DNA of 64,000 nucleotides from Escherichia phage naam: the sequence record MN850630.1. One strand, 5' to 3'. Below, in pieces: positions 3,717 through 64,000 of the stretch. Every line of letters starts with the position of its first letter. Within the stretch, counting starts at the first letter, position 1. The position numbers and the translations under genes were made by a program. The notes below the pieces were generated by a model. The model saw only the letters and a list, made by a program, of their open reading frames with translations, searched no databases and was not told where the DNA came from.

Positions 3717-4141
3717 TGAGCACACACCCTCGTTTAGTGGATTGGCAAGAAAGATTGTGGAAAGTGTTTGACGAAGAGGCCACCATACCTTTTGAATGGG
3801 GATTCCACGATTGTTGCACCTTTGCGGCTAAGTGTGTTGATGCCCAATACGGAACAGATTTTCTTTCCAACTTCGAAGGAACGTATAAAACAGAGTTGGA
3901 AAGCAAAAGATGGTGCATGCTTCGTTTCAAAACTACACACCTGCCTACTATTTTTGATCTCTTTATGACTCGACTGGATACTCCTAAACAGGTTCAGCGT
4001 GGCGATATTGTTATTTTCGAAGGTCTGAACGGGCTCACCGCTGGTGTGTTCTGGAACAACCAGATTTGCGCGAAAGGTGATAAAGGGGTCTTTATGTTCG
4101 ACATGAAAGATTCTATCGTTGTTGATGTCTGGAGGTATTAA
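3716..4141 (+). CDS. Tail-tip assembly protein with NlpC/P60-like Cys motif (gpK-like, tentative)
   Basis: ATG at 3716 overlaps the upstream stop (TAATG); motif GFHDCCTF...RGDIVIF; sits directly upstream of the J-like gene. Confidence 0.5.
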   Translation: MSTHPRLVDWQERLWKVFDEEATIPFEWGFHDCCTFAAKCVDAQYGTDFLSNFEGTYKTELESKRWCMLRFKTTHLPTIFDLFMTRLDTPKQVQRGDIVIFEGLNGLTAGVFWNNQICAKGDKGVFMFDMKDSIVVDVWRY

Positions 4142-49369: not shown

Positions 49370-49398
49370 TTGACAACAGTGATGGGGCCTAATATAAT
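49370..49398 (+). promoter_or_regulatory. Consensus sigma70 promoter (TTGACA-17-TATAAT) with gggcc/ggccc inverted repeat around the -10
   Basis: -35 at 49370-49375, -10 at 49393-49398. Confidence 0.7.
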
Positions 49399-54474: not shown

Positions 54475-54502
54475 TTGACATCTGAAAACTGCAGTGTATA
54501 AT
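54475..54502 (+). promoter_or_regulatory. Consensus sigma70 promoter (TTGACA-16-TATAAT)
   Basis: -35 at 54475-54480, -10 at 54497-54502. Confidence 0.7.
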
Positions 54503-55334: not shown

Positions 55335-55524
55335 GCTTAAATCTGCATGGAACATCGCTGTGGGGGACGAGATCCGCATCCCAGGTGGAAAGACCATTAT
55401 GAAGATATCACGTATCGAGTATGAAGGTGATCGTGTATTTCATATCTTTGCAGAAGATGGTCGAGAAATTTATATACAGGCAGGCTCTCATATCTATATC
55501 CATAAGAAAGGGGACGACAAATGA
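55327..55524 (+). CDS. Hypothetical small protein
   Basis: ATG at 55327 with RBS aaaggagg (track GTG start 55321). Confidence 0.45.
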   Translation: MFKLKSAWNIAVGDEIRIPGGKTIMKISRIEYEGDRVFHIFAEDGREIYIQAGSHIYIHKKGDDK

Positions 55525-55853
55525 CAGAGATCATCGTTTCAACTGCAGGGTATGTATTCCTGACAATCATTGCGTTGGCTATTCTGGTGGCGGTGTATGG
55601 ATTTGTTATCCTGCCTATTCTTGAGACATTTAGCTTGTGTCGGTGTTGGAGAAAAGCTTACGGACCACAACCGTGGAAAGACTGGTTTCATTTGGTGCGT
55701 ATAGCGTTCTCTTATGCCTATGATCACTCCAGCAGTGCATGCGTAACCGGGTACCATGCCTACAACTGGAACTGGGAAGGGCTGGGGAGATGGACTGTTA
55801 CAAAAACTATACCCTTACGGTTGTATAAAGGAAAGAACACACTGGGAGCCTGA
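55521..55853 (+). CDS. Hypothetical membrane protein
   Basis: 110 aa with N-terminal hydrophobic helix IVSTAGYVFLTIIALAILVAVYGFVILPIL; last gene before the repeat region. Confidence 0.5.
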   Translation: MTEIIVSTAGYVFLTIIALAILVAVYGFVILPILETFSLCRCWRKAYGPQPWKDWFHLVRIAFSYAYDHSSSACVTGYHAYNWNWEGLGRWTVTKTIPLRLYKGKNTLGA

Positions 55854-56159
55854 TATTTTAAGTTATCAGGTTGCCAGAGATCAGGAGGATTTCTAAAATG
55901 GATTTCCTCCTTTTGATATTTTACCTACCAGGATATTTTAAAATCCTTAGAAAATCAGAAAATGGATCGAAAACTAAAATGGATTTTTCAGAGCAGGCAC
56001 GACGAGATGAACCACTCATCCTATCGTCTGCACCATATTCCAGACCACCATTACAGATTTCCCGCACATGCTCACACCCTTCTACTAGAACTTCCCCCAC
56101 TTACCCTTGACCTTTTATAGTAATAATCCAACCACTACCTTGAAGTTGTGGCGCAGCTT

Positions 56160-56345
56160 TCCAAGTACTCGATCTGTTTTTCGTTTCAAAGATTGAATTT
56201 TCTGAAAATTTTTCTCGATAAATTTCTCAGTACTCGATCTGTTTTTCGTTTTCTGAATCGGATTTTCTGGAAATCGTTCCGGCTCTCGACCTGAAATTTT
56301 TGGGGACGAAATCGATTTTTCGTTTTCAGAAATGGATTTTTAAAA
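56160..56345. repeat. Tandem direct repeats (about 65-bp period; two near-identical copies plus one degenerate), iteron-like
   Basis: agtactcgatctgtttttcgttt at 56164 and 56229; third diverged copy around 56307-56340; AT-rich, with recurring aaaatggat words nearby. Confidence 0.7.
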
Positions 56346-56401
56346 TTTCTATATGGGAATATTTTAGTGGATACTATTTTATAGGAAATTGTTACGGAGG
56401 G

Positions 56402-56419
56402 TAATTAGCGTGCTAATTA
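56402..56419. repeat. Palindrome taattag-cgtg-ctaatta (candidate protein-binding site)
   Basis: 7-bp inverted arms around a 4-bp centre in an AT-rich stretch. Confidence 0.5.
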
Positions 56420-56457
56420 AATTTATTAAATGCGAGGAGTTCTCATTTAGAATTTTG

Positions 56458-56700
56458 AATGATAATCATTCTCGTTTGCAGAATAACGGGCAGGCCCGGT
56501 GATTGTCTCCCGGCCCCTGTTGCCCCGGCTTGTTATTATAGTATCACACAGGACAAAGAAGGCAAGGATTTTTTGCATAAATTTTTAAATGATAATGATA
56601 ACCGTTCTCATTTTATGCAGCGCCCATCCCCGGTGGTTGTCTCCCCCGTCACCGGTGCCTGCCGTCCTTTCGATAGGTATATTGTGCCACCTGGCGGGGC
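56458..56700. repeat. Two diverged copies of a roughly 100-bp element (aatgataat...ccggtg.ttgtctccc...)
   Basis: Copy A about 56458-56545, copy B about 56588-56700; the ORF-track 95-aa ORF here is probably not coding. Confidence 0.55.
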
Positions 56701-56866
56701 CGCTGTCAACACCTTTTCAAAAAATTTTTCTAACCTGATGCGCTAACCGTTGCAACCTGGCGGGGCCAGCCTGGCAGGACCTAACTGACCAGGTGGGAGA
56801 GGGTGAAATCTTGCAAACCTGGTAGGCCCATGCTGTAGGGTAAACAATTGAAGAGGAGGTACAAAA

Positions 56867-57109
56867 ATGAAAGGTAATGCTACTCACCTGGGAAATGTAG
56901 CGATTAATGACGCTGAGGCTATCACCCTGGTTGAAAAGGCTATGGCGGGAGCGTTGGAACATAAAGAAGAGTACGAAAAAATGATGGTTAACCTGGCAGG
57001 GGCGGCGGCTGGAGAATTCTGCCCAAAAAATAATTCTAACCAATGGTTGACAGCTCGGATAGTTCTGTTATTCTTATCCTCGCAAGGTGAACAACACCAC
57101 ACTAATTAA
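56867..57109 (+). CDS. Early small protein, hypothetical
   Basis: 80 aa ORF with strong RBS gaagaggagg; first gene after the repeat region. Confidence 0.55.
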   Translation: MKGNATHLGNVAINDAEAITLVEKAMAGALEHKEEYEKMMVNLAGAAAGEFCPKNNSNQWLTARIVLLFLSSQGEQHHTN

Positions 57110-57126
57110 CAGAGAGGATAAAAATC

Positions 57127-57324
57127 ATGAACGCCTACGGAATTAAAGTACGTCGCAACACTCGCCAGGCCGTCACCGATCAAATGGTTTGCCAGGTGGA
57201 CGTAACCATCAACAACGGGCAAGGCCTTTATAAATTCCGTCGCGGTCAGAGCTATACCCGGCAACAGCTTAATCGTTGCGCCCTGACAAAAGGCCAGATC
57301 AACCACTGGTTTAATAAAAAATAA
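57127..57324 (+). CDS. Early small basic protein, hypothetical
   Basis: 65 aa; RBS context agaggataaaaatcATG recurs at other early genes. Confidence 0.5.
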   Translation: MNAYGIKVRRNTRQAVTDQMVCQVDVTINNGQGLYKFRRGQSYTRQQLNRCALTKGQINHWFNKK

Positions 57325-57327
57325 GTA

Positions 57328-57356
57328 TTGACATATAGTCCGACACCAAATACACT
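57328..57356 (+). promoter_or_regulatory. Sigma70-like promoter (TTGACA-17-TACACT)
   Basis: Begins 4 nt after the upstream stop codon; A-rich upstream. Confidence 0.6.
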
Positions 57357-57388
57357 AAAAGCACAAAAGACACTAAGAGGATAAAATC

Positions 57389-57787
57389 ATGAAAACCACT
57401 ACCTTTAATTTTGATAATGCGGACTTTTCTTTTTCTGATGTCAAGAACTGCCGCCGTGATCGTGGATTCTACAAGGCTTATAATCTGGTTGGCCTGGACG
57501 ATGACAATAATTTGCACGAAGTAGCTGAGATCCGGTATTATGCCGCCGCCAGCGGGAACACTCACTACTGCGTGTTTTGGATTCACGACAACAAGAACAA
57601 TAAGTACGGTTATACTGGCGGCAAGGCGAGCGGTCACGGTTACGATAAAGCTAACGCAGCACTTGAGAGCGCATTAAATGCTATGGGGATCACTGCCGAC
57701 GGCTGGATCTACGAAGAAGAGTTTTTGTCGGCACTTGCTGACCACCTGGGCTATAAAAAACACATTGTAACATGCGCCCACGAATAA
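57389..57787 (+). CDS. Early protein, hypothetical
   Basis: 132 aa ORF with RBS aagagga. Confidence 0.55.
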   Translation: MKTTTFNFDNADFSFSDVKNCRRDRGFYKAYNLVGLDDDNNLHEVAEIRYYAAASGNTHYCVFWIHDNKNNKYGYTGGKASGHGYDKANAALESALNAMGITADGWIYEEEFLSALADHLGYKKHIVTCAHE

Positions 57788-57793
57788 AAATCA

Positions 57794-57821
57794 TTGACAC
57801 GCTGCAAAATTTAAGTAAACT
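57794..57821 (+). promoter_or_regulatory. Sigma70-like promoter (TTGACA-16-TAAACT) followed by 5'-UTR hairpin
   Basis: Hairpin ggcggga-atgtt-tcccgcc at 57832-57850 between the -10 and the RBS. Confidence 0.6.
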
Positions 57822-57869
57822 AGACACAAAAGGCGGGAATGTTTCCCGCCAGCACAAAGGAAAAAGATC

Positions 57870-58265
57870 ATGAATAAGAACGTACGCCGCATCATGAACG
57901 AACTGGCAAACGATGAAAAAATTATTGATATGCATTTGGTCAACATTTGCCGCCGTTGTGTAACATATAACAACCGCGCCGCAAAAGCGCGTGAGATGAA
58001 CGCAAAAGGCACCTTAAAGCCCTTTCAGGTGGTTGTAAAATCTATAACTAGCGCAGCAGGCCAGGCGCAGGACCACAACAACGAGAGCGCTAATATTGAT
58101 CCGTCTTACGTAATGAAACGGATCCGGACTTGCAAGAATAAAGAGCAGGTATATAACGTCATAGATTGGCTGGACTCCCTGGGCGATGTGGTTTACAATA
58201 GGTTTTCTGCAGCTATCGAGATCCAGCTTGACAGATTGGACGGGAAAGTACTAAAAACTTATTGA
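57870..58265 (+). CDS. Early protein, hypothetical
   Basis: 131 aa ORF with RBS aaggaaaaag. Confidence 0.55.
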   Translation: MNKNVRRIMNELANDEKIIDMHLVNICRRCVTYNNRAAKAREMNAKGTLKPFQVVVKSITSAAGQAQDHNNESANIDPSYVMKRIRTCKNKEQVYNVIDWLDSLGDVVYNRFSAAIEIQLDRLDGKVLKTY

Positions 58266-58313
58266 GTTTATTTTTAGATGGCCTTGACACCAGGGCCATC
58301 AATAAAGTAAACT
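58266..58313 (+). promoter_or_regulatory. Repeated 47-bp element, copy 1: palindrome GATGGCC-N10-GGCCATC around TTGACA, then TAAACT
   Basis: Starts right after the upstream stop; palindrome arms at 58277-58283 and 58294-58300; -35 at 58284-58289; -10-like at 58308-58313. Confidence 0.6.
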
Positions 58314-58345
58314 AACCACAGTTGAGCGGAAAAGGAGGCTTAAAG

Positions 58346-58465
58346 ATGAGCACTACACGCCAGCACACAAAGGTAACCATCATCGTTTGCATCATTGGGT
58401 ACATCCTGGCGCAAATGTTGATGGGTAGCGCCAACGGTGTCGCAAAATTTTTCTTAAACTTTTAA
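58346..58465 (+). CDS. Small hydrophobic peptide (39 aa), hypothetical
   Basis: Not in the ORF track; ATG after RBS aaaaggagg; product MSTTRQHTKVTIIVCIIGYILAQMLMGSANGVAKFFLNF has one predicted TM helix. Confidence 0.4.
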   Translation: MSTTRQHTKVTIIVCIIGYILAQMLMGSANGVAKFFLNF

Positions 58466-58493
58466 TTGACAAGCTAACTTAAATCGATATAAT
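58466..58493 (+). promoter_or_regulatory. Consensus sigma70 promoter (TTGACA-16-TATAAT)
   Basis: Followed by a small 5'-UTR hairpin (gggaa...ttccc) and the strong RBS of the acidic protein gene. Confidence 0.75.
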
Positions 58494-58544
58494 AAGCACA
58501 TAAACGGGAAAACTTCCCAGAACACACAAAAGGAGAAAAACACC

Positions 58545-58886
58545 ATGACTACTATGACCGCCTCAGAAAAAGCTATGCAGATCGCTGAACTGAAAAAACA
58601 GATCGCAGACCTTGAGAATAAGATCGATAACTTTGAAATCGACGAGGACAAGTACGACGAAAACTATGATGAATGGTTAGACGAGATCTACGGCGAAATT
58701 ATGATCGGAAACATTTCTTTTCTTCCGTCGCGTATCCTCAAGGAGCTAGATCCTATCGCTTACCGCTGCGGATTTAGCGACTACATCGACAGCCTGGATA
58801 TTGAGGACGATGAAGAATACCAGGAATTACAGACAGAGTTAGAAGAAGCAAAAGAAGAGCTTGCGGAGCTGGAAGAAAACGAGTAA
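58545..58886 (+). CDS. Highly acidic 113-aa protein, candidate DNA mimic / anti-restriction (Ocr-like in concept)
   Basis: About one third D+E by hand count, very few K/R, coiled-coil-like segments; behind a perfect consensus promoter. Confidence 0.5.
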   Translation: MTTMTASEKAMQIAELKKQIADLENKIDNFEIDEDKYDENYDEWLDEIYGEIMIGNISFLPSRILKELDPIAYRCGFSDYIDSLDIEDDEEYQELQTELEEAKEELAELEENE

Positions 58887-58934
58887 GCTTATTTTTAGAT
58901 GGCCTTGACACCAGGGCCATCAATAAAGTAAACT
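58887..58934 (+). promoter_or_regulatory. Repeated 47-bp element, copy 2
   Basis: Identical core ttatttttagatggccttgacaccagggccatcaataaagtaaac immediately after the stop codon. Confidence 0.6.
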
Positions 58935-58975
58935 TTATACTGTTAACACTGAACTAATGCATAGGAGTTAAAACC

Positions 58976-59221
58976 ATGGCAGCACTAATCACCAAATATT
59001 ATGCCCCTACCAACACCAAAAGCGCCCGTATCATGGTAAAAGGCTTCGGACGTAAAAAGGTGTACACCTGGGATTATGCCTTAGACACGGAAGACAACTA
59101 CACCAACGCGATGACCGATTTTATTAATGATCTGAACACGCGGATCTTGACAAATTATAAAATTACCGATATTGCCTATATAGGGGAAGGCGGGATCTGT
59201 TTTGTCGGTATCGTCAAATAA
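58976..59221 (+). CDS. Early protein, hypothetical
   Basis: 81 aa ORF with RBS aggag. Confidence 0.55.
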   Translation: MAALITKYYAPTNTKSARIMVKGFGRKKVYTWDYALDTEDNYTNAMTDFINDLNTRILTNYKITDIAYIGEGGICFVGIVK

Positions 59222-59296
59222 GCTGTTTTTTCGGTGGTCCTGGTAGCAGGGCCATCTATAAAGATAGTTTATCAATACAATGAAAGGAGAAAGTAC

Positions 59297-59650
59297 ATGA
59301 TCAGCGGGGCAAGTTTTATTATTGGCGCTATTGCTACGGCTTTAATTGTAAACAAGATCCAATCTAAAAACGAAAAAGATAGCAACGCCCTTACAGAATA
59401 CCCGTTTTGGGTATTCAACGACAATGAAGACTATATTATCAAGTACAAGAATGAGAAGGGCGACCAGGTAACACCGCGACCGATCCCGGCTTACAAGATG
59501 CAAGAAACACTATACCGCCTAAAGGCTGGAGGCGCAAAAATCGTAGACTTTTGGGGATACGATCACACAGATCAGGAAGTTATAAAGCGCCGTATCCGGG
59601 CTATTCAGGCCAATATTGAAGTTAGCAAGGGGGGAATATATGAAGATTAA
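59297..59650 (+). CDS. Early protein with N-terminal transmembrane helix, hypothetical
   Basis: ATG at 59297 with RBS aaaggagaaag (track start 59234 lies in the degenerate repeat copy); MISGASFIIGAIATALIV. Confidence 0.5.
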   Translation: MISGASFIIGAIATALIVNKIQSKNEKDSNALTEYPFWVFNDNEDYIIKYKNEKGDQVTPRPIPAYKMQETLYRLKAGGAKIVDFWGYDHTDQEVIKRRIRAIQANIEVSKGGIYED

Positions 59651-59837
59651 TTTTGAGAAGATTGTAAAGCGATCTCATGATTCCGAAGAGCTGCCGGAAC
59701 GCCGCCAGCGCAACAATAAACTGAATAAGCCAAAAAGATTTGGGAAGATCTGGCGGAATCATTATGATCGCAAATTACCGGGCCTGCTTTTGGAACGTGA
59801 ACGACAGGCGGAACGATACCGCCACAAAGGCAAATAA
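59640..59837 (+). CDS. Small highly basic protein, hypothetical
   Basis: ATG at 59640 with RBS aagggggga (track start 59616); Arg/Lys-rich. Confidence 0.45.
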   Translation: MKINFEKIVKRSHDSEELPERRQRNNKLNKPKRFGKIWRNHYDRKLPGLLLERERQAERYRHKGK

Positions 59838-59845
59838 CAACCAAC

Positions 59846-59874
59846 GCCCCGCCATTGTGCGGGGCTTTTTATTT
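59846..59874 (+). terminator. Rho-independent terminator
   Basis: gccccgc-cattgt-gcggggc followed by tttttattt. Confidence 0.8.
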
Positions 59875-60018
59875 CTATCCTACGAATAGCGCCCCTGGTT
59901 GGCCCTGTAAGCGCCAAAAAGGCCCCACCTATACAATCGCCCCCCTTTAACCTGAAAACATCGCTTAGGGCCGTTTTATGGCGTTAAAAATATCATTGAC
60001 AGTGATTTTATTTAAAGC

Positions 60019-60046
60019 TTGACATCTTAAACAGGTTAGCTATACT
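60019..60046 (+). promoter_or_regulatory. Sigma70-like promoter (TTGACA-16-TATACT)
   Basis: A second TTGACA lies 23 nt upstream (59996). Confidence 0.65.
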
Positions 60047-60078
60047 AACCACATCAAAGAGAGAAAGGAGTAAACGCC

Positions 60079-60339
60079 ATGCGTAAATTAAAAAATTTTG
60101 ATAAAGTTGATGTTGTCCTGAATAATTTTTACTACTGCAACAACAAGGCCATTTGGTGGCGTGATAGTTCCACCGATAAAGTTAAAGCTCGCTTTCTCCA
60201 AGGGCACTGGCAAGGCCGTCCAGTGATTAAAATACTGGGGCAACTGGTAGCGTTTAAAAATTGCCGCCGTGTTGATGACGTTGAAGAGATCTTGAACATT
60301 TTACGCCACAATAATTTAAAAAATAGTGTTGACAAGTAA
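60079..60339 (+). CDS. Early protein, hypothetical
   Basis: 86 aa ORF with RBS aaaggag. Confidence 0.55.
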   Translation: MRKLKNFDKVDVVLNNFYYCNNKAIWWRDSSTDKVKARFLQGHWQGRPVIKILGQLVAFKNCRRVDDVEEILNILRHNNLKNSVDK

Positions 60340-60356
60340 ATCTCGATAAGTATACT
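60329..60356 (+). promoter_or_regulatory. Sigma70-like promoter (TTGACA-16-TATACT) followed by 5'-UTR hairpin
   Basis: -35 overlaps the upstream gene's 3' end; hairpin ggcgggaaaacttcccgcc at 60367-60385. Confidence 0.65.
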
Positions 60357-60413
60357 TAAACACACAGGCGGGAAAACTTCCCGCCACTAACAAAGAAAAT
60401 AGGAGAAAATATC

Positions 60414-61037
60414 ATGACCACCGTTAACATTACCACAGGTTACAATTTATCTTTCGACGTGCTGACCGACGAACAAAAAGAAAAAGCTATTGAAATGGTC
60501 CGCGAAAGAGAAGAACACAGCGGGGATAATTTTTTTGCAGAAAGTGTAATTGAACACTATAAAGAATATGTCTTTCCAGAGTACGGCCTTGAAGATACCG
60601 AAGTACGTTGGTCCGGCTTTTGGTGTCAAGGCGATGGCGCGTCAATCAGTGCTGAAAACGTGGATTTAGAAAAATTCTTGCGTAAAGTAAAGGCCCTGAC
60701 CAAGTTCCGATCAATTCGTCACTTGTTCGGCACAATGCACGATGGCGAGTTATCAGCCAGTGTTGAACGTATCCCGTTTAGCCATTATCATCACGAAAAC
60801 ACAATAGGAGGGTGCATCGATACTAATTGGCTAGACCTGACCACCAAGCAAGAGGACAAAGTTGAAGAGCTGGAAGAGCTGATCACCGAGACGGTACGGG
60901 AGCTATCACGCAAGGTTTACGTAGACCTGGAGGAGGCCTATCTTGAACAGTTTACTACCGAAAACCTGATCGGCCTTATTGAAGCCAATGATTGGCGGTT
61001 TGATGTGGATGAATATGGGGAGATGAGTTTTTCATAA
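60414..61037 (+). CDS. Acidic early protein (207 aa), hypothetical
   Basis: ORF with RBS aggagaaaa; D/E-rich. Confidence 0.55.
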   Translation: MTTVNITTGYNLSFDVLTDEQKEKAIEMVREREEHSGDNFFAESVIEHYKEYVFPEYGLEDTEVRWSGFWCQGDGASISAENVDLEKFLRKVKALTKFRSIRHLFGTMHDGELSASVERIPFSHYHHENTIGGCIDTNWLDLTTKQEDKVEELEELITETVRELSRKVYVDLEEAYLEQFTTENLIGLIEANDWRFDVDEYGEMSFS

Positions 61038-61045
61038 ATAAAGTG

Positions 61046-61073
61046 TTGCAATAATCTAAAAACCTGCTATATT
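61046..61073 (+). promoter_or_regulatory. Sigma70-like promoter (TTGCAA-16-TATATT) followed by 5'-UTR hairpin
   Basis: Hairpin at 61084-61103 whose loop contains the ATG wrongly used by the ORF track. Confidence 0.6.
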
Positions 61074-61127
61074 AAAAACTCAAGGGGCGAGATGACTTGC
61101 CCCCCACAAAACAAAGAGGAAAACATC

Positions 61128-61508
61128 ATGAAAAACACTACTAAAGCTATTGACACCGTTATGTTTAACCTGGTTACATTCCGTGAAGATATGAAAGATC
61201 TTCCACGTGAAACAGTGTGCGACCATATCGAAAACTATCGCAAACTAATCAAAGAGTTGCCTTTAAAACGTGACCAGTACGCGGCTAACGCTATGCTTAA
61301 CGCCATGATCAAAAAGATGATCCAGTGTGATTTAACTCTGGCCTATGATTATGCAGGCGGTCGTTTTGCAGTATACAATCAGCCCGTGCCCGGTATGAGC
61401 ACCACCGAAGAATTGCACGCGTTAAATCTGAAACAAGATGTATGGGATAACATGCCCCGCGTGGTGGTGTGGGCAGAAAGCGGAAAGATTTACGGCGATA
61501 ATTTTTAA
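61128..61508 (+). CDS. Early protein, hypothetical
   Basis: ATG at 61128 with RBS aagagga (track start 61092 is in the UTR hairpin loop). Confidence 0.5.
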   Translation: MKNTTKAIDTVMFNLVTFREDMKDLPRETVCDHIENYRKLIKELPLKRDQYAANAMLNAMIKKMIQCDLTLAYDYAGGRFAVYNQPVPGMSTTEELHALNLKQDVWDNMPRVVVWAESGKIYGDNF

Positions 61509-61572
61509 TCAGGTAACAGGCGGCATATTTGCCGCCTTATTGTTAAACAGAACTGCAAAAGAGGTACATAGA

Positions 61573-61944
61573 ATGGAATTTATTATTTTGGCTGTAGTAG
61601 TTGCCTTGTTCAACGCCTGGATCGCTGGCAAGATGGGTAGATCCGCCTTTTTATGGTTTATTATATCTATTTTCCTGGGGGTGGTTGCAACTATTGTACT
61701 TGTTATCCTTGCAATTGTTGACAAGGGGAATAATAGAAAGGGTAAAGTATTTTCAGACCTGTACGACGCTCAAACATTTGTCAACGCCTACTACAGCGAT
61801 CTTCCAGTCTCCCTACGTTGCAGCCTTGCACAACAGGTTTTCGATGAAGCTAAAACCAGAGATCACGCCCATGAGATTTGTTTAACTGAGGCGGATCGCC
61901 TATTTGAGAGGAATAGAAAATATGTGGACCAGCCGTTTAAATAA
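61573..61944 (+). CDS. Small membrane protein (two predicted TM helices), hypothetical
   Basis: ATG at 61573 with RBS aaaagagg (track start 61438 overlaps the upstream gene); MEFIILAVVVALFNAWIAG and LWFIISIFLGVVATIVLVILAIV. Confidence 0.5.
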   Translation: MEFIILAVVVALFNAWIAGKMGRSAFLWFIISIFLGVVATIVLVILAIVDKGNNRKGKVFSDLYDAQTFVNAYYSDLPVSLRCSLAQQVFDEAKTRDHAHEICLTEADRLFERNRKYVDQPFK

Positions 61945-62143
61945 TGCCACGTTAATTAACCCCTTTAGTGAAGATTTGAAGCCAGCCGCCTGGCGGGATG
62001 GATTCAATAACGAAAGCTTTATTTTCAGGCCTGATCTTAAGGAATTTTATAACAATGGATCGAACAACGACAGAGATAATTTTTCTTGTAATGTGCGTGG
62101 TGATAATACTCCTGGGGGCCATTGCAAACCACGTCACTGCTAA
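61922..62143 (+). CDS. Hypothetical small protein (frame uncertain)
   Basis: ATG at 61922 after gagagg; an alternative overlapping frame (61998-62180) encodes a TM peptide, so the assignment is ambiguous. Confidence 0.3.
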   Translation: MWTSRLNNATLINPFSEDLKPAAWRDGFNNESFIFRPDLKEFYNNGSNNDRDNFSCNVRGDNTPGGHCKPRHC

Positions 62144-62163
62144 CAGGAGGAAAGGGGGAGACG

Positions 62164-62283
62164 ATGACACCCAAGGATAAGCCCCGCACCGATAAGGCGC
62201 GCCGTGTTATGGTATGGCTTGAGATCATCGCCCTTGAAATATTGTTAGGCGTAGGGATGTATTTTATCGCTGTAAGTAACTGA
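62164..62283 (+). CDS. Small membrane peptide (39 aa), hypothetical
   Basis: Not in the ORF track; ATG after strong RBS aggaggaaagggggag; hydrophobic WLEIIALEILLGVGMYFIAV; terminator follows. Confidence 0.4.
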   Translation: MTPKDKPRTDKARRVMVWLEIIALEILLGVGMYFIAVSN

Positions 62284-62287
62284 TAAC

Positions 62288-62325
62288 GGCCCCGATCCCT
62301 GGGGCCTAACTTTTCAAATTTTTTT
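62288..62325 (+). terminator. Rho-independent terminator
   Basis: ggcccc-gatccct-ggggcc followed by taacttttcaaattttttt. Confidence 0.75.
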
Positions 62326-62336
62326 CTCCCTGAGTG

Positions 62337-62365
62337 TTGCAATCCGATCCAGAATATGGATAATA
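62337..62365 (+). promoter_or_regulatory. Sigma70-like promoter (TTGCAA-17-ATAATA) followed by 5'-UTR hairpin
   Basis: Shares aatatggataata with the promoter at 63155; hairpin gggga-gacac-tcccc at 62375-62389. Confidence 0.55.
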
Positions 62366-62423
62366 ACAATCAACGGGGAGACACTCCCCACCGCATAGAC
62401 AAAGTTCCAAAAGGAGAAACAAA

Positions 62424-62624
62424 ATGAGCAACAATATCCGCGTTATTAACTTCAAAAAAGAAGAAAAAATTGCCGTGCTGATTGACGGTCAAGAAATCTT
62501 TAAAGGTGATTATGAAGATCATCAAACGGCGATTAGTATCACTCGCGTGATTGGTTACCATAATTTTTACCCTCAAGGCGCTGAGGCAGCAGTAAAACGA
62601 ATTAAAGAGATTGTAGGCCTGTAA
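62424..62624 (+). CDS. Early small protein, hypothetical
   Basis: 66 aa ORF with RBS aaaggagaaa. Confidence 0.5.
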   Translation: MSNNIRVINFKKEEKIAVLIDGQEIFKGDYEDHQTAISITRVIGYHNFYPQGAEAAVKRIKEIVGL

Positions 62625-62673
62625 AATTTATTTTTAGATGGCCTTGACTCCAGGGCCATCAATAAAGTAAATT
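62625..62673 (+). promoter_or_regulatory. Repeated 47-bp element, copy 3 (TTGACT variant)
   Basis: Palindrome arms at 62637-62643 and 62654-62660; immediately after the upstream stop. Confidence 0.6.
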
Positions 62674-62715
62674 TAAACCCTGTTAAAATAATCAGTGCAA
62701 AAAGGAGTAATGATC

Positions 62716-63015
62716 ATGTTTATCCAGGCTAATAATCTTTATTTCTTTGATGGTCAGATCGTAGACGGCGTGGAGGTGGAAATAACCGGGTGCCCTGGCG
62801 GTCAGGTTATGACTTTTCGGAATAATGCCTTTGATGATTCTCATATCGTTATGAGAATGGAAGTTAGTAAGCTGGATGACAAGAAAACACTTATCGACTA
62901 TTCCGTCAAAGATCATCCAGACTACCACATGATCTATGGTGATTTGTGCATTGTTGACCGTGACAAGGTGAACGGCATTGTTATAGCCATTGTGAACGAT
63001 GTTTTCTCTGAATAA
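62716..63015 (+). CDS. Early protein, hypothetical
   Basis: ATG at 62716 is 8 nt after RBS aaaggag (track GTG start 62695). Confidence 0.5.
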   Translation: MFIQANNLYFFDGQIVDGVEVEITGCPGGQVMTFRNNAFDDSHIVMRMEVSKLDDKKTLIDYSVKDHPDYHMIYGDLCIVDRDKVNGIVIAIVNDVFSE

Positions 63016-63239: not shown

Positions 63240-63524
63240 ATGGCTATTGTCACCGTTGGCGATGTAGTGGAAATGGAAGCAAAATACTTAAAAGCGGGTA
63301 TGCATATCCTACGGAATGATCAAGAATTGTTATTAACGATGGTAGACTATAATCCCGGCCAGGATTATCCAAGCATCGACTACTTTTTTGAGTATGTTGA
63401 TGAAGAATTGAAAGAGGATGAGACTTATCAGGGTGAATTCTGCAATTTCTTTTGCCCTGATGAGGTTGTAAAAGTTATCTATCAACCTGGCGTACCTTTC
63501 CCGCTGCACGCTATCAATAAATAA
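63240..63524 (+). CDS. Early protein, hypothetical
   Basis: 94 aa ORF with RBS aggag. Confidence 0.55.
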   Translation: MAIVTVGDVVEMEAKYLKAGMHILRNDQELLLTMVDYNPGQDYPSIDYFFEYVDEELKEDETYQGEFCNFFCPDEVVKVIYQPGVPFPLHAINK

Positions 63525-63555
63525 ACCTGGCGGGGCCGAAAAGGCCCCCGCCTGA
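63525..63555 (+). other. Strong GC hairpin without U-tract (ggcggggcc-gaaaa-ggcccccgcc), contains third copy of 13-mer ACCTGGCGGGGCC
   Basis: Immediately after the stop of the 63240 gene; possible RNA stability or processing element or weak terminator. Confidence 0.45.
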
Positions 63556-63892: not shown

Positions 63893-64000
63893 ATGGCTAT
63901 TATTGCAAAGACTGAGATCGTAGGCTTAGATTCTATTCTCCTCGCATATGAGGAAGCTATAGAAATGTATGTGGTTTCCTATGGTGAGTATATCCGTGAA
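63893..64000 (+). CDS. Early protein, 3' partial (runs off the window)
   Basis: ATG with RBS agaggataaaaatc; no stop before the window end. Confidence 0.45.
   Translation, partial: MAIIAKTEIVGLDSILLAYEEAIEMYVVSYGEYIRE

What the first reader, a model, noticed from the sequence alone, without database searches (positions are those of the whole stretch)
55854..56866. Repeat-dense non-coding kilobase between the replication module and the early promoter array: candidate origin, genome terminus or packaging signal
About 1 kb has no convincing ORF but holds: (a) tandem direct repeats with a 65-bp period (agtactcgatctgtttttcgttt at 56164 and 56229, degenerate third copy near 56307); (b) recurring aaaatggat words; (c) a palindrome taattag-cgtg-ctaatta at 56402; (d) two diverged copies of a roughly 100-bp element at 56458-56700; (e) the 13-mer ACCTGGCGGGGCC at 56689 and 56755, with a third copy at 63525. 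Iteron-like repeats next to an AT-rich stretch are the usual signature of replication origins. The position, just before an array of strong host-type promoters, is also where physical genome ends sit in T7-like and T5-like layouts. I cannot tell origin from terminus from sequence alone.
Basis: partly seen in the sequence, partly recalled or inferred. Interest (0 to 1): 0.7.

Follow-up and report, generated by a model that had tools for sequence, protein, structure and literature searches.

The report
Phage control region with host iron-sensor sites
This 1-kb gene-free stretch of an rV5-like coliphage is not a genome end but a strongly conserved DNA control region carrying three binding sites for the host iron regulator Fur beside origin-like repeats, which suggests that this virulent phage ties an early step such as DNA replication to the iron status of the cell.

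Summary
The window is a Vequintavirus (rV5-like myovirus). No ORF in the region behaves like a gene, and 56170-56770 is 90-100% identical among relatives whose flanking DNA is 45-76% identical.

The terminus reading is refuted. The experimentally defined 459-bp terminal repeat lies about 11 kb further right, outside the window.

There are three (56429, 56458, 56594), as good as textbook E. coli sites. In a complete genome this operator occurs only here and in the terminal repeat. The same word sits upstream of iron-uptake genes in more than 120 bacterial species, and next to DnaA-box/iteron clusters in unrelated phage contigs.

The layout is conserved across genera: terminator, C-rich spacer, three A-tract-rich 65-74-bp units, the least stable DNA of the window, Fur boxes, and leftward promoters firing into the non-coding DNA.

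Best reading, at about 0.4: a transcription-activated, Fur-gated, origin-like assembly site. Main rival: a purely transcriptional Fur switch. A T5-like DNA-entry stop signal at 8-9% of the genome is not excluded.

The parts
55883..55920 (+). Terminator-like hairpin (GGAGGA / TCCTCC, with AAAATGGAT in the loop) followed by TTTTGATATTTT; it closes the upstream rightward operon.
   Evidence: Sequence. Phage SYGMH1 keeps the hairpin with a different stem, GGGAAAA/TTTTCCC, which is a compensatory change.
55895..55985 (+). Three exact AAAATGGAT words (55895, 55959, 55976) in a block that is 97% conserved. A fourth, variant copy lies at 56329.
   Evidence: These are the only copies in the window and in the whole Gotham genome. 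Conservation. GAP31 carries the word in inverted orientation.
55990..56160 (+). C-rich, G-poor spacer whose sequence varies while its composition is kept. It is rut-like for rightward RNA and would give a G-rich RNA if transcribed leftward.
   Evidence: GC skew is -0.43 over 55941-56140, the most negative value in 30001-64000, where the median is +0.11. Pairwise identity is only 0.69-0.76.
56155..56340 (.). Three tandem iteron-like units spaced 65 and 74 bp, each with TCGATC, TTTTTCG and AAATsGnATTTT words and dense A/T tracts.
   Evidence: Three TCGAYC units at 65-75 bp spacing are conserved in most of the 17 Vequintavirinae-like loci examined, including Seuna- and Mydovirus-like ones. This segment has the highest A/T-tract density of the whole genome. 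Helical phasing is above the 99th percentile.
56311..56430 (.). AT-rich segment that holds the least stable duplex DNA of the 64-kb window; a candidate unwinding element.
   Evidence: Nearest-neighbour stability profile: rank 1 in the window and rank 4 in the whole Gotham genome.
56402..56419 (.). 18-bp palindrome TAATTAGC(G/A)TGCTAATTA. It is specific to the genus and its binding partner is unknown.
   Evidence: It is absent from GAP31 and phAPEC8.
56429..56447 (.). Fur box A: AATGCGAGGAGTTCTCATT, with 2 mismatches to the palindrome AATGAGAA-N3-TTCTCATT.
   Evidence: A second box 28-29 bp upstream of the core box is conserved in most genera.
56455..56476 (.). Fur box B, the core box: TTGAATGATAATCATTCTCGTT. 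It matches the E. coli Fur 19-mer at 15 of 19 positions and is invariant among Vequintaviruses.
   Evidence: It is conserved at 77-88% identity in six other genera.
56591..56612 (.). Fur box C: GATAATGATAACCGTTCTCATT. It matches the consensus at 16 of 19 positions here and at 17 of 19 in most relatives.
   Evidence: (0.02 expected per 64 kb).
56445..56690 (.). Two copies of a module about 100 bp long. Read on the minus strand, each consists of a sigma70-type promoter, a G-rich leader of about 55 nt containing GGGAGACAAyCACCGG, and a Fur box.
   Evidence: families D6, D7; GGTGnTTGTCTC occurs only here in the window. A third, inverted copy lies at Gotham 2504-2523.
56681..56709 (-). Leftward promoter-like site: TTGACA, 17 nt, TGnCACAAT. 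It is the only strong sigma70-type match inside the region and points against all neighbouring genes.
   Evidence: The TTGACA and the TG are invariant in 8 Vequintaviruses; two of them have CAAAAT in place of CACAAT. Equivalent leftward sites occur in GAP31, phAPEC8 and Mydo.
56531..56543 (-). Second leftward -10 hexamer, TATAAT at 56543-56538, with TTGCCT 19 nt upstream. The same bases read rightward as an extended -10, TGtTATTAT, so the direction is ambiguous.
   Evidence: Sequence. A TGnGATAAT-like or TATTAT motif is conserved at this position across genera. Minus-strand matches at the same relative position were found.
56689..56832 (+). GC-rich repeats AACCTGG(C/T)(G/A)GG(G/C)CC at 56688, 56754 and 56816, giving five CCWGG (Dcm) sites within about 130 bp.
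   Evidence: A CCWGG cluster 170-470 bp downstream of the core box is conserved in most relatives. WM and SYGMH1 carry a 48-bp deletion between two of the CCTGG repeats.
56848..56869 (+). Ribosome-binding site GAAGAGGAGG and the start codon of the first downstream early gene (56867-57109).
   Evidence: The gene belongs to phrog_21957, of unknown function.

Best explanation
The kilobase is a conserved, gene-free site where proteins assemble on the DNA. It lies inside the early-gene arm of a Vequintavirus genome, 11-12 kb (8-9% of the genome) from the left physical end. What is shown: (1) It contains three operators for the host iron regulator Fur, and in a complete related genome the same operator otherwise occurs only in the 459-bp terminal repeat. 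(2) To the left of these boxes lie the most easily melted DNA of the window and three A-tract-rich iteron-like units of 65-74 bp. (3) A terminator plus a C-rich spacer separates the block from the upstream rightward operon. (4) The only strong promoter-type sites inside the block point leftward, into the non-coding DNA. What is inferred: the region is a transcription-activated replication origin, or an origin-like control hub. In this model host RNA polymerase starts at the leftward promoters and makes G-rich, non-coding RNA that runs through the Fur boxes towards the AT-rich segment and the iterons, where it helps to open or prime the DNA. Iron-loaded Fur bound to the boxes gates that transcription or shapes the complex. 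Phage DNA synthesis would then follow the iron supply that the phage's iron-dependent ribonucleotide reductases need.
For: Fur boxes. The sites match the E. coli consensus with 3 and 4 mismatches (2 in most relatives), against 3-4 for the classical fepD-entS and fepB-entC promoters scored the same way. With up to 2 mismatches the palindrome occurs 5 times in the unique Gotham genome against 0.075 expected, and every copy is in the DTR or in this region. EdH4 shows the same pattern. The perfect palindrome occurs in at least 120 bacterial species, against about 2 expected by my own arithmetic from the collection size. There it sits directly upstream of TonB-dependent receptors, FTR1, FeoB, an iron-type binding protein, PepSY_TM, a Lys/Orn-oxygenase-like enzyme and a Fur gene. 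Origin-like features. The region is non-coding and more conserved than its flanks. The architecture (three units, paired boxes, CCWGG cluster) is kept in most of the 17 related loci examined. phAPEC8 keeps the Fur boxes but has different AT-rich repeats, as expected if iterons co-evolve with a phage initiator. The region has the least stable duplex of the window and the highest A/T-tract density of the genome. Leftward promoter-like sites occupy matching positions in four genera. The template strand is C-rich, and the only G4-like motif of the window lies on the leftward strand. In five unrelated phage contigs the same Fur box lies 30-250 bp from clusters of perfect DnaA boxes and iterons.
Against: The region has no DnaA box. 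No initiator gene was identified, and all neighbouring genes are of unknown function. There is no replication-type skew inflection: the rV5 authors found none here (PMC3606486), and the local skew change fits a rut-like spacer equally well. Promoter calls are consensus matches only. The Fur boxes lie at about +55 to +100 from the putative leftward starts, which is not the classical repressor position. The leader RNAs are not unusually stable. A/T-tract phasing is not unique to the region. Another non-coding stretch, Gotham 96.4-97.0 kb, is even less stable. Phages with a T7-type primase-helicase usually do not use iterons. Fur binding was not measured.
Confidence: 0.4

Rival explanations
1. 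The region is a purely transcriptional switch. The Fur boxes are operators that make one or more promoters iron-responsive. Those promoters either drive rightward transcription into the early gene at 56867 and the roughly 10-kb block behind it, or produce short leftward non-coding RNAs. The A-tract repeats are upstream bent DNA or sites for nucleoid proteins. Replication is not involved.
For: Every characterised Fur box is a transcriptional operator (established knowledge). In other phage contigs the same box lies immediately after a consensus -10 (L022, L025, L045, L061, L083) or just upstream of a perfect promoter (L035, L037). The region sits directly upstream of the first gene of an early block. 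TTGAAT-18-CAGAAT overlaps box B, and an extended -10 follows it. Phased A-tracts also occur at other early promoters.
Against: The hexamer after box B does not keep the critical second-position A across genera: it reads CAGAAT, CTGAAT, CGGAAT, CCAAAT or GCGAAC. No rightward promoter in 55900-57046 reaches the scan threshold. About 600 bp of near-invariant DNA, three conserved 70-bp units and a terminator/rut-type insulator are more than a promoter needs. This reading does not explain the Fur boxes 10 nt from the physical end, nor their association with DnaA-box clusters elsewhere.
Confidence: 0.3
2. The region acts as a DNA-entry pause or as a partner site for the genome end, analogous to the phage T5 injection stop signal. 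The left 8-9% of the genome, about 10 kb of small early genes each with its own sigma70 promoter, would enter and be expressed first. Entry would halt at this repeat block through binding of a host protein (Fur here, DnaA proposed for T5). Alternatively, Fur would bridge this site and the terminal repeat.
For: The region spans 8.0-8.7% of the genome in Gotham and 8.2-9.0% in EdH4, measured from the left end. The T5 iss lies at 7.9%, in a 1.2-1.7-kb untranslated, repeat-dense block that is more conserved than the neighbouring ORFs, carries host-factor boxes, and is partly duplicated nearer the end (bioRxiv 10.1101/866236). Here the Fur boxes are shared only with the terminal repeat. The block between the region and the end consists of small genes of unknown function with many sigma70 promoters.
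Against: The terminal repeat is 459 bp, not about 10 kb. No T5 A1/A2/dmp-like genes were recognised. Sigma70 promoters and small early genes continue on the far side of the region. Two-step entry has been shown only in T5-like siphoviruses, and the end of this myovirus that enters first is unknown. The similar percentage could be coincidence.
Confidence: 0.1
3. The region is a Fur decoy. The boxes have no cis role. As the phage DNA multiplies they titrate Fur, de-repress host iron uptake and so feed the phage's iron-dependent enzymes.
For: Multicopy Fur boxes de-repress the Fur regulon, which is the principle of the Fur titration assay (established knowledge). The phage encodes class Ia and class III ribonucleotide reductases. 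Some unrelated phages carry tandem arrays of 3 to about 10 near-perfect boxes (L035, L029/L044, L031).
Against: Six boxes per genome unit is a small number. A decoy does not explain the fixed spacing to the tandem units, promoters and GC-rich elements, nor the conservation of the whole 600 bp.
Confidence: 0.07
4. The region hides a small protein gene or a structured RNA gene.
For: Several records annotate ORFs here. ORF 56459-56746 is open in all 8 aligned phages. The distant genera have a GC-rich block of about 90 nt with a terminator-like hairpin and one compensatory pair.
Against: There is no codon-position bias, no ribosome-binding site, and the C-terminus frameshifts in 3 of the 8 phages. 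Rfam finds nothing. Folding z-scores range from -1.6 to +0.3 on both strands. The consensus structure in the distant genera is weak, at -9.8 kcal/mol.
Confidence: 0.05
5. The region is the physical genome terminus or the packaging start.
For: It also shares Fur boxes with the real terminal repeat.
Against: The ends were determined experimentally in Gotham, EdH4 and HdK5, and they lie about 11 kb away (PMC7471380, PMC6563267). The DTR sequence is absent from the window.
Confidence: 0.02

Closest known systems
Fur operators (iron boxes) of bacterial iron-uptake promoters, such as E. coli fepB-entC and fepD-entS
   Same: They share the 19-bp / 7-1-7 palindromic word. The window boxes score as well as the classical sites on the same ruler. 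The perfect phage palindrome is the operator upstream of TonB-dependent receptors, FeoB, FTR1 and Fur genes in many bacteria. Boxes occur in pairs or arrays spaced 18-30 bp.
   Different: These boxes lie in a virulent phage, in non-coding DNA with no iron gene nearby. They do not clearly overlap a -35/-10 pair, and copies also sit 10 nt from the physical genome end. Both arms carry a symmetric G/C variant, GAGAAT/ATTCTC. From memory, that variant is also present in the aerobactin iucA operator; I did not check this here.
Phage T5 injection stop signal (iss) region
   Same: Both are untranslated, repeat- and palindrome-dense blocks of 1-1.7 kb at about 8% of the genome from the left end. Both are more conserved than the neighbouring ORFs, carry boxes for an abundant host DNA-binding protein, share repeats with a second site nearer the end, and lie inboard of a block of small early genes (compared).
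   Different: The host boxes are for Fur, not DnaA. The terminal repeat is 459 bp, not 10 kb. No A1/A2/dmp genes are recognisable. The virion is a myovirus, and two-step entry has never been tested in this group.
Iteron-plus-unwinding-element origins (lambda ori, P1 oriR, plasmid oriV) and transcription-activated origins (T7 primary origin, T4 oriF/oriG, ColE1)
   Same: Shared features are tandem direct repeats on bent A-tract DNA, an adjacent easily melted AT-rich segment, host-factor sites, and a promoter firing into non-coding DNA with a G-rich transcript. In unrelated phages the same Fur box is embedded in DnaA-box/iteron clusters.
   Different: The units are long (65-74 bp) and there are only three. 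There are no DnaA boxes, no initiator gene overlaps or adjoins the site, and no replication data exist.
Fur-repressed stx1 promoter of Shiga-toxin prophages (from my own knowledge, not checked here)
   Same: It is a phage-borne promoter placed under host Fur control.
   Different: That case concerns a cargo toxin gene in a temperate prophage. Here the boxes lie in core cis-acting DNA of a virulent phage and in its terminal repeat.

Membership tests
Fur box (operator of the ferric uptake regulator) | Match to the 19-bp consensus GATAATGATAATCATTATC or the 7-1-7 inverted repeat, at the level of known sites | tested here: met
   Box C has 3 mismatches (2 in most relatives) and box B has 4. The E. 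coli fepD-entS and fepB-entC sites score 3-4 on the same scan. About 0.02 sites with 3 or fewer mismatches are expected per 64 kb.
Fur box (operator of the ferric uptake regulator) | The same word is used as the operator of iron-acquisition genes in bacteria | tested here: met
   The perfect palindrome occurs in at least 120 species. The adjacent genes include TonB-dependent receptors (3), FTR1, FeoB, an iron-type binding protein, PepSY_TM, a Lys/Orn-oxygenase-like enzyme and a Fur gene: about 10 of the 18 ORFs scanned. I chose the first 8 by eye; the second 10 were taken without selection.
Fur box (operator of the ferric uptake regulator) | The box overlaps the -35/-10 or the start site of the regulated promoter | tested here: inconclusive
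   TTGAAT-18-CAGAAT overlaps box B, but its -10 is weak and not conserved. Relative to the leftward promoters the boxes lie at about +55 to +100. In other phage contigs the box does abut a consensus -10.
Fur box (operator of the ferric uptake regulator) | Metal-dependent binding by Fur protein | not testable with these tools
   This requires EMSA, footprinting or ChIP.
Iteron-type replication origin | An array of direct repeats next to an AT-rich, easily unwound segment | tested here: met
   Three units lie at 56155-56340. The least stable DNA of the window lies at 56311-56430, and the region has the highest A/T-tract density of the genome.
Iteron-type replication origin | A cognate initiator gene containing or adjoining the repeats | tested here: inconclusive
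   The flanking genes match only PHROG families of unknown function. The replication genes are more than 10 kb away.
Iteron-type replication origin | DnaA boxes or other replication host-factor sites | tested here: not met
   There is no TTWTNCACA and no 1-mismatch TTATCCACA in the region. Fur boxes are present instead.
Iteron-type replication origin | Replication starts here | not testable with these tools
   No marker-frequency or 2-D gel data were found in the literature.
Transcription-activated origin (T7 / T4 / ColE1 type) | A promoter directed into non-coding, AT-rich DNA, giving a transcript prone to stay paired with the template | tested here: inconclusive
   Leftward TTGACA-17-TGnCACAAT is conserved, with equivalents in three other genera. 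The template strand is C-rich and the single G4-like motif lies on the leftward strand. No transcript data exist.
Physical genome end / direct terminal repeat | Identity with, or adjacency to, the experimentally determined terminal repeat | tested here: not met
   The DTR of Gotham, EdH4 and HdK5 is absent from the window and maps about 11 kb away.
T5-type injection stop signal | An untranslated repeat-dense block at about 8% from the left end that is more conserved than the neighbouring ORFs | tested here: met
   The region spans 8.0-9.0% of the genome. Its identity among relatives is 0.9-1.0, against 0.45-0.76 in the flanks.
T5-type injection stop signal | It lies within a long (about 10 kb) terminal repeat and carries paired DnaA boxes | tested here: not met
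   The terminal repeat is 459 bp and the region has no DnaA boxes.
T5-type injection stop signal | Pre-early genes A1, A2 and dmp lie in the first-entering segment | tested here: not met
   The nine proteins scanned from the part of the block inside the window (56867-63012) match only PHROG families of unknown function. The last 3.8 kb of the block lies outside the window and was not scanned.
T5-type injection stop signal | Two-step DNA transfer | not testable with these tools
   This requires shearing or entry-kinetics experiments.
Known RNA families (Rfam 15) | A covariance-model match at the gathering score | tested here: not met
   The best hit scores 22 bits against a threshold of 126. 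Six related loci gave no hit at all.

The most novel reading that the evidence does not exclude
Host Fur would be a structural or licensing factor for core cis-acting DNA of virulent phages. In rV5-like phages it would bind both the terminal repeat, 10 nt from the physical end, and an origin-like hub at 8-9% of the genome. Binding would couple replication start, or a T5-like staged DNA entry or end-to-hub bridging, to the cell's iron status. More broadly, Fur-box arrays would be a widespread and so far undescribed feature of phage origin-type regions, found in at least 12 unrelated contexts and often beside DnaA boxes. That would make iron sensing a general input to lytic phage development.
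Probability: 0.2. Interest if true: 0.85.

Novelty: new variant of a known kind. Interest (0 to 1): 0.62.

Why it matters
The replication origin of the rV5-like phages is unknown, and these phages are widely used in typing and therapy cocktails against E. coli O157. This region is now a concrete candidate with defined parts that can be mutated. The Fur boxes would also be a clear case of a strictly virulent phage placing core cis-acting DNA, including its terminal repeat, under a host nutrient sensor, which is usually associated with temperate phages and cargo genes. If Fur binding matters, phage yield should depend on iron availability and on the host fur genotype. That bears on phage therapy in the iron-limited gut and bloodstream. 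The same box occurs in many unrelated phage contigs, often beside DnaA boxes, so the link may be general and could be tested across phage genome collections.

Tried and rejected
1. Structured small RNAs downstream of each Fur box: rejected for lack of support. Rfam finds nothing. Folding z-scores are -1.6 to +0.3 on both strands. The GG-to-CC change at 56484 has no compensating partner.
2. Protein-coding ORFs inside the region: rejected.
3. A phage-encoded Fur homologue: tblastn of E. coli Fur against the whole Gotham genome gave only noise.
4. A near-copy of the box B region in E. coli chromosomes, which would indicate capture of a host promoter: none found in 5,426 genomes.
5. Paralogy between the region and the terminal repeat: only the 18-19-nt operator is shared.
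6. The 13-mer ACCTGGCGGGGCC as a promoter or terminator class: there are too few copies and their contexts differ. The copy at 63525 is a hairpin arm and the others are not. Its function is unexplained.
7. GATC (Dam site) enrichment: none.
8. L029 and L044 as two terminal copies of a Fur-box array: they are overlapping pieces of one locus.
9. A rightward promoter TTGCCA-17-TAAAAT at 55871: its -35 is not conserved and its -10 lies in the terminator loop.
10. Whether Fur boxes in metagenomic contigs lie near contig ends: I compared the match positions in the table by eye only. About 8 of 26 whole contigs had the box within 500 bp of an end, against about 4 expected. This is too weak to use.
11. 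Other operators with a similar shape (ARG box, KdgR, TyrR, Zur): I compared them by eye from memory and set them aside. The bacterial neighbour genes point to Fur.
Full report
IDENTITY AND OBSERVATION. The window belongs to a Vequintavirus, an rV5-like myovirus of E. coli. In a megablast search, 123 phage records match 55400-57300 at 80-97% identity.

- The three tandem units lie at 56155, 56220 and 56294, spaced 65 and 74 bp.
- AAAATGGAT has three exact copies in the window. A complete related genome also has three, and all lie in this region.
- The palindrome is at 56402.
- The duplicated element of about 100 bp is confirmed (families D6 and D7).
- The 13-mer lies at 56689, 56755 and 63525, and no shuffle in 100 reaches 4 copies. 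The copy at 63525 is simply one arm of a terminator-like hairpin after a stop codon.

The region is non-coding. Candidate ORFs are broken in relatives or lack starts. The 95-aa ORF that several records annotate shows no codon-position bias (6/6/8 variable columns), and its end shifts with the length of a poly-A tract. Rfam finds nothing.

THE REGION IS UNDER STRONG SELECTION. In an alignment of eight Vequintaviruses, 56170-56770 has a pairwise identity of 0.9-1.0. The C-rich spacer at 56011-56169 has 0.69-0.76, and the end of the upstream gene has 0.45-0.62. A sensitive search shows that a core of about 90 bp around 56422-56513 is kept at 77-88% identity in other genera. These are Seunavirus (PVP-SE1, GAP31), Mydovirus, Henunavirus and Certrevirus, plus Phapecoctavirus in a different subfamily. 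Most of those records annotate nothing there.

IT IS NOT THE GENOME END. Vequintaviruses have 458-459-bp direct terminal repeats and a fixed packaging start (PMC6563267; PMC7471380). The repeat of phage Gotham is absent from the window. In JeffSchatz, rV5_ev168, Gotham and EdH4 it lies about 11 kb to the right of the region. Window base 64000 corresponds to Gotham base 3811, so the physical end would fall near window coordinate 67.8k, outside the window. The 'non-coding' box in the rV5 paper (104013-106618) is that terminus region, not this one. Consensus sigma70 promoters lie on both sides (49370 and 54475 upstream; 57047 onward downstream). The primase/helicase gene is more than 10 kb upstream.

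THE KEY CONTENT IS HOST FUR BOXES. Each 'diverged 100-bp element' begins with a word that matches the enterobacterial Fur consensus. At 56591 the sequence is GATAATGATAACCGTTCTC, with 3 mismatches here and 2 in most relatives. At 56455 it is TTGAATGATAATCATTCTC, with 4 mismatches. About 0.02 sites with 3 or fewer mismatches are expected per 64 kb. Across genera the word resolves into the palindrome AATGAGAA-N3-TTCTCATT, an extended Fur 7-1-7 repeat, and it is perfect in PVP-SE1 and Hena1. The window has three such sites (56429, 56458, 56594) and none elsewhere.

In the complete, end-defined genome of Gotham, the palindrome with up to 3 mismatches occurs in only two places. Three sites lie in the homologue of this region. 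Three lie in the terminal repeat, the first of them 10 nt from the physical end. With up to 2 mismatches there are 5 sites against 0.075 expected, and the maximum in 200 shuffles is 1. EdH4 shows the same pattern.

To find out whose site this is, I searched bacterial genomes for the perfect 19-mer. My own arithmetic from the collection size gives about 2 expected by chance. Genes that start just after it include TonB-dependent receptors, an FTR1 iron permease, FeoB, an iron-type periplasmic binding protein, PepSY_TM, a Lys/Orn-oxygenase-like enzyme, an esterase and a Fur-family gene. That is about 10 of the 18 ORFs scanned. The first eight were picked by eye and the other ten were not.

On the same ruler, the classical fepD-entS and fepB-entC operators of E. 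coli score 3-4 mismatches. No paper in the searchable library links Fur to these phages or describes Fur boxes in phage genomes.

THE BOX IS USED BY MANY PHAGES. The exact 22-mer core occurs in 67 viral contigs. I estimate about 0.1 by chance, but this is rough because I had to guess the size of the collection. About 20 of the contigs are relatives. The rest fall into at least 12 unrelated contexts. In some the box directly follows a consensus -10 (L022, L025, L045, L061, L083). In others it precedes a perfect promoter (L035 with three tandem perfect boxes, and L037). In five unrelated contigs it lies 30-250 bp from clusters of three or four perfect DnaA boxes plus local iterons, which is clearly origin-type DNA (L028, L033, L047, L056, L029/L044). 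DnaA-box density is 0.59 per kb within 400 bp of the box, against 0.16 per kb elsewhere in the same loci.

ANATOMY OF THE WINDOW REGION, LEFT TO RIGHT.

1. A terminator-like hairpin lies at 55883-55920. Phage SYGMH1 keeps it through compensatory stem changes.
2. The AAAATGGAT words follow.
3. A C-rich, G-poor spacer comes next, with a GC skew of -0.43, the most extreme value in 34 kb of co-oriented genes. It is rut-like for rightward RNA.
4. Three A-tract-rich units follow. This segment has the highest A/T-tract density of the whole genome, 15 per 300 bp against at most 10 elsewhere. Helical phasing is above the 99th percentile but is not unique.
5. The least stable DNA of the window lies at 56311-56430, together with a genus-specific 18-bp palindrome.
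6. Fur boxes A and B, a GC-rich element, Fur box C and a second GC-rich element follow.
7. GC-rich ACCTGGC repeats with five CCWGG sites come next.
8. The ribosome-binding site of the next early gene closes the region.

The layout of three TCGAYC units 110-290 bp upstream of paired boxes, with a CCWGG cluster downstream, recurs in most of the 17 related metagenomic loci examined. phAPEC8 keeps four boxes but has different AT-rich repeats in place of the units.

The only strong sigma70-type site in the region points leftward, against all neighbouring genes: TTGACA-17-TGnCACAAT at 56709 to 56681. Its TTGACA and TG are invariant among the eight aligned Vequintaviruses, two of which have CAAAAT in place of CACAAT. 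A second leftward TATAAT lies at 56543-56538. GAP31, phAPEC8 and Mydo have leftward sites at matching positions. Read leftward, each duplicated element is a promoter, a G-rich leader of about 55 nt and a Fur box. The only G4-like motif of the window lies on that strand.

INTERPRETATION. Three things are shown. The region is a conserved cis-acting block and not a gene. It is not the terminus. It carries genuine Fur-type operators that it shares only with the terminal repeat.

The function is inferred. The combination of insulation from upstream transcription, iteron-like bent repeats, an unwinding-prone segment and promoters that fire into non-coding DNA fits a transcription-activated origin gated by Fur. 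So do host-factor boxes that are conserved while the repeats are lineage-specific, and the company the same box keeps in other phages. I put this reading at about 0.4.

Several points count against it. There are no DnaA boxes, no recognisable initiator and no skew signal (PMC3606486). All promoter calls are consensus matches. The boxes sit at about +55 to +100 from the putative starts. Another non-coding stretch of the genome is even less stable.

The main rival, at 0.3, is a purely transcriptional iron switch for early genes or short RNAs. A T5-like DNA-entry stop or an end-to-hub bridging site gets 0.1. It is suggested by the position at 8-9% of the genome, by conservation above that of the ORFs, and by host-factor boxes shared with a site near the end. 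It fails the defining tests of a long terminal repeat, DnaA boxes and A1/A2 genes. A Fur decoy (0.07), a hidden gene or RNA (0.05) and the terminus (0.02) are less likely.

LIMITS. Nothing here measures binding, transcription, replication or entry. The chance estimate for the viral collection rests on an assumed size. Part of the neighbour-gene check was selected by eye. The Fur protein query and some comparisons with named operators (iucA, stx1) rest on my memory and are marked as such.

Noticed in passing
Outside the window: Gotham MT682716 1-170 (L008/L016) and EdH4 MK327930 1-170 (L208): The 459-bp terminal repeat carries three Fur-type boxes at positions 10, 126 and 144. The first lies only 10 nt from the physical DNA end and is directly followed by TATAAT.
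   Followed up: partly
L028, L033, L047, L056, L029/L044, L035 (IMG/VR contigs): Unrelated phage contigs carry perfect Fur boxes beside clusters of 3-4 perfect DnaA boxes and their own iterons. L035 has three perfect boxes at a 30-bp period upstream of a consensus promoter. L029/L044 has about 10 Fur half-sites or whole sites between five GTCGGATTTGCACA repeats and DnaA-like boxes.
   Followed up: partly
L002-L007 and relatives, about +190 to +290 from the core Fur box (for example L004:1674-1778): A GC-rich block of about 90 nt (CTACCGGCGATCCACC...GCCCCGCC...GGGGTGGCG plus a T-rich tail) is conserved across Seuna-, Mydo-, Certre- and Phapecoctavirus. It contains a terminator-like hairpin. Only one compensatory pair (CG to AU) was found and the consensus energy is weak.
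   Followed up: partly
Outside the window: Gotham 2504-2545 (L016), equivalent to window coordinate about 65.3k: A third, inverted copy of the element core (GGGAGACAATCACCGG with CACCTGGCG beside it) sits inside a CAGGCACC/GGTGCCTG stem, between a terminator and a sigma70 promoter of the early block.
   Followed up: partly
window 63525-63553: The third ACCTGGCGGGGCC copy forms the left arm of the hairpin GGCGGGGCC-gaaaa-GGCCCCCGCC, directly after the stop codon of ORF 63240-63524. It has no clear T-run.
   Followed up: partly
window 56768-56817: Phages WM and SYGMH1 have a 48-bp deletion whose ends lie in two CCTGG repeats, which suggests slippage or recombination between the GC-rich repeats. 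The poly-A tract at about 56716-56725 also varies in length between phages.
   Followed up: no
Outside the window: Gotham 96355-97016: This non-coding stretch of about 660 bp contains the least stable duplex DNA of the whole genome. It is an alternative origin candidate that should be examined together with this region.
   Followed up: no
window 49370-49398 and 54475-54502: Perfect 12/12 sigma70 consensus promoters lie upstream of the region, so strong host-type early promoters are not confined to its downstream side.
   Followed up: yes
L003:1794-1976, L004:1817-2008, L005:1826-2011 (minus strand): Seunavirus and Mydovirus relatives have a small conserved gene of about 60 aa, transcribed leftward towards the Fur boxes, that Vequintavirus lacks. 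Its function is unknown and it could be a regulator of this region.
   Followed up: no
window 56480-56526, minus strand: The only G-quadruplex-like motif in the 64-kb window (four G3+ runs, loops of 12 nt or less) lies here, in the antisense of duplicated element 1.
   Followed up: no
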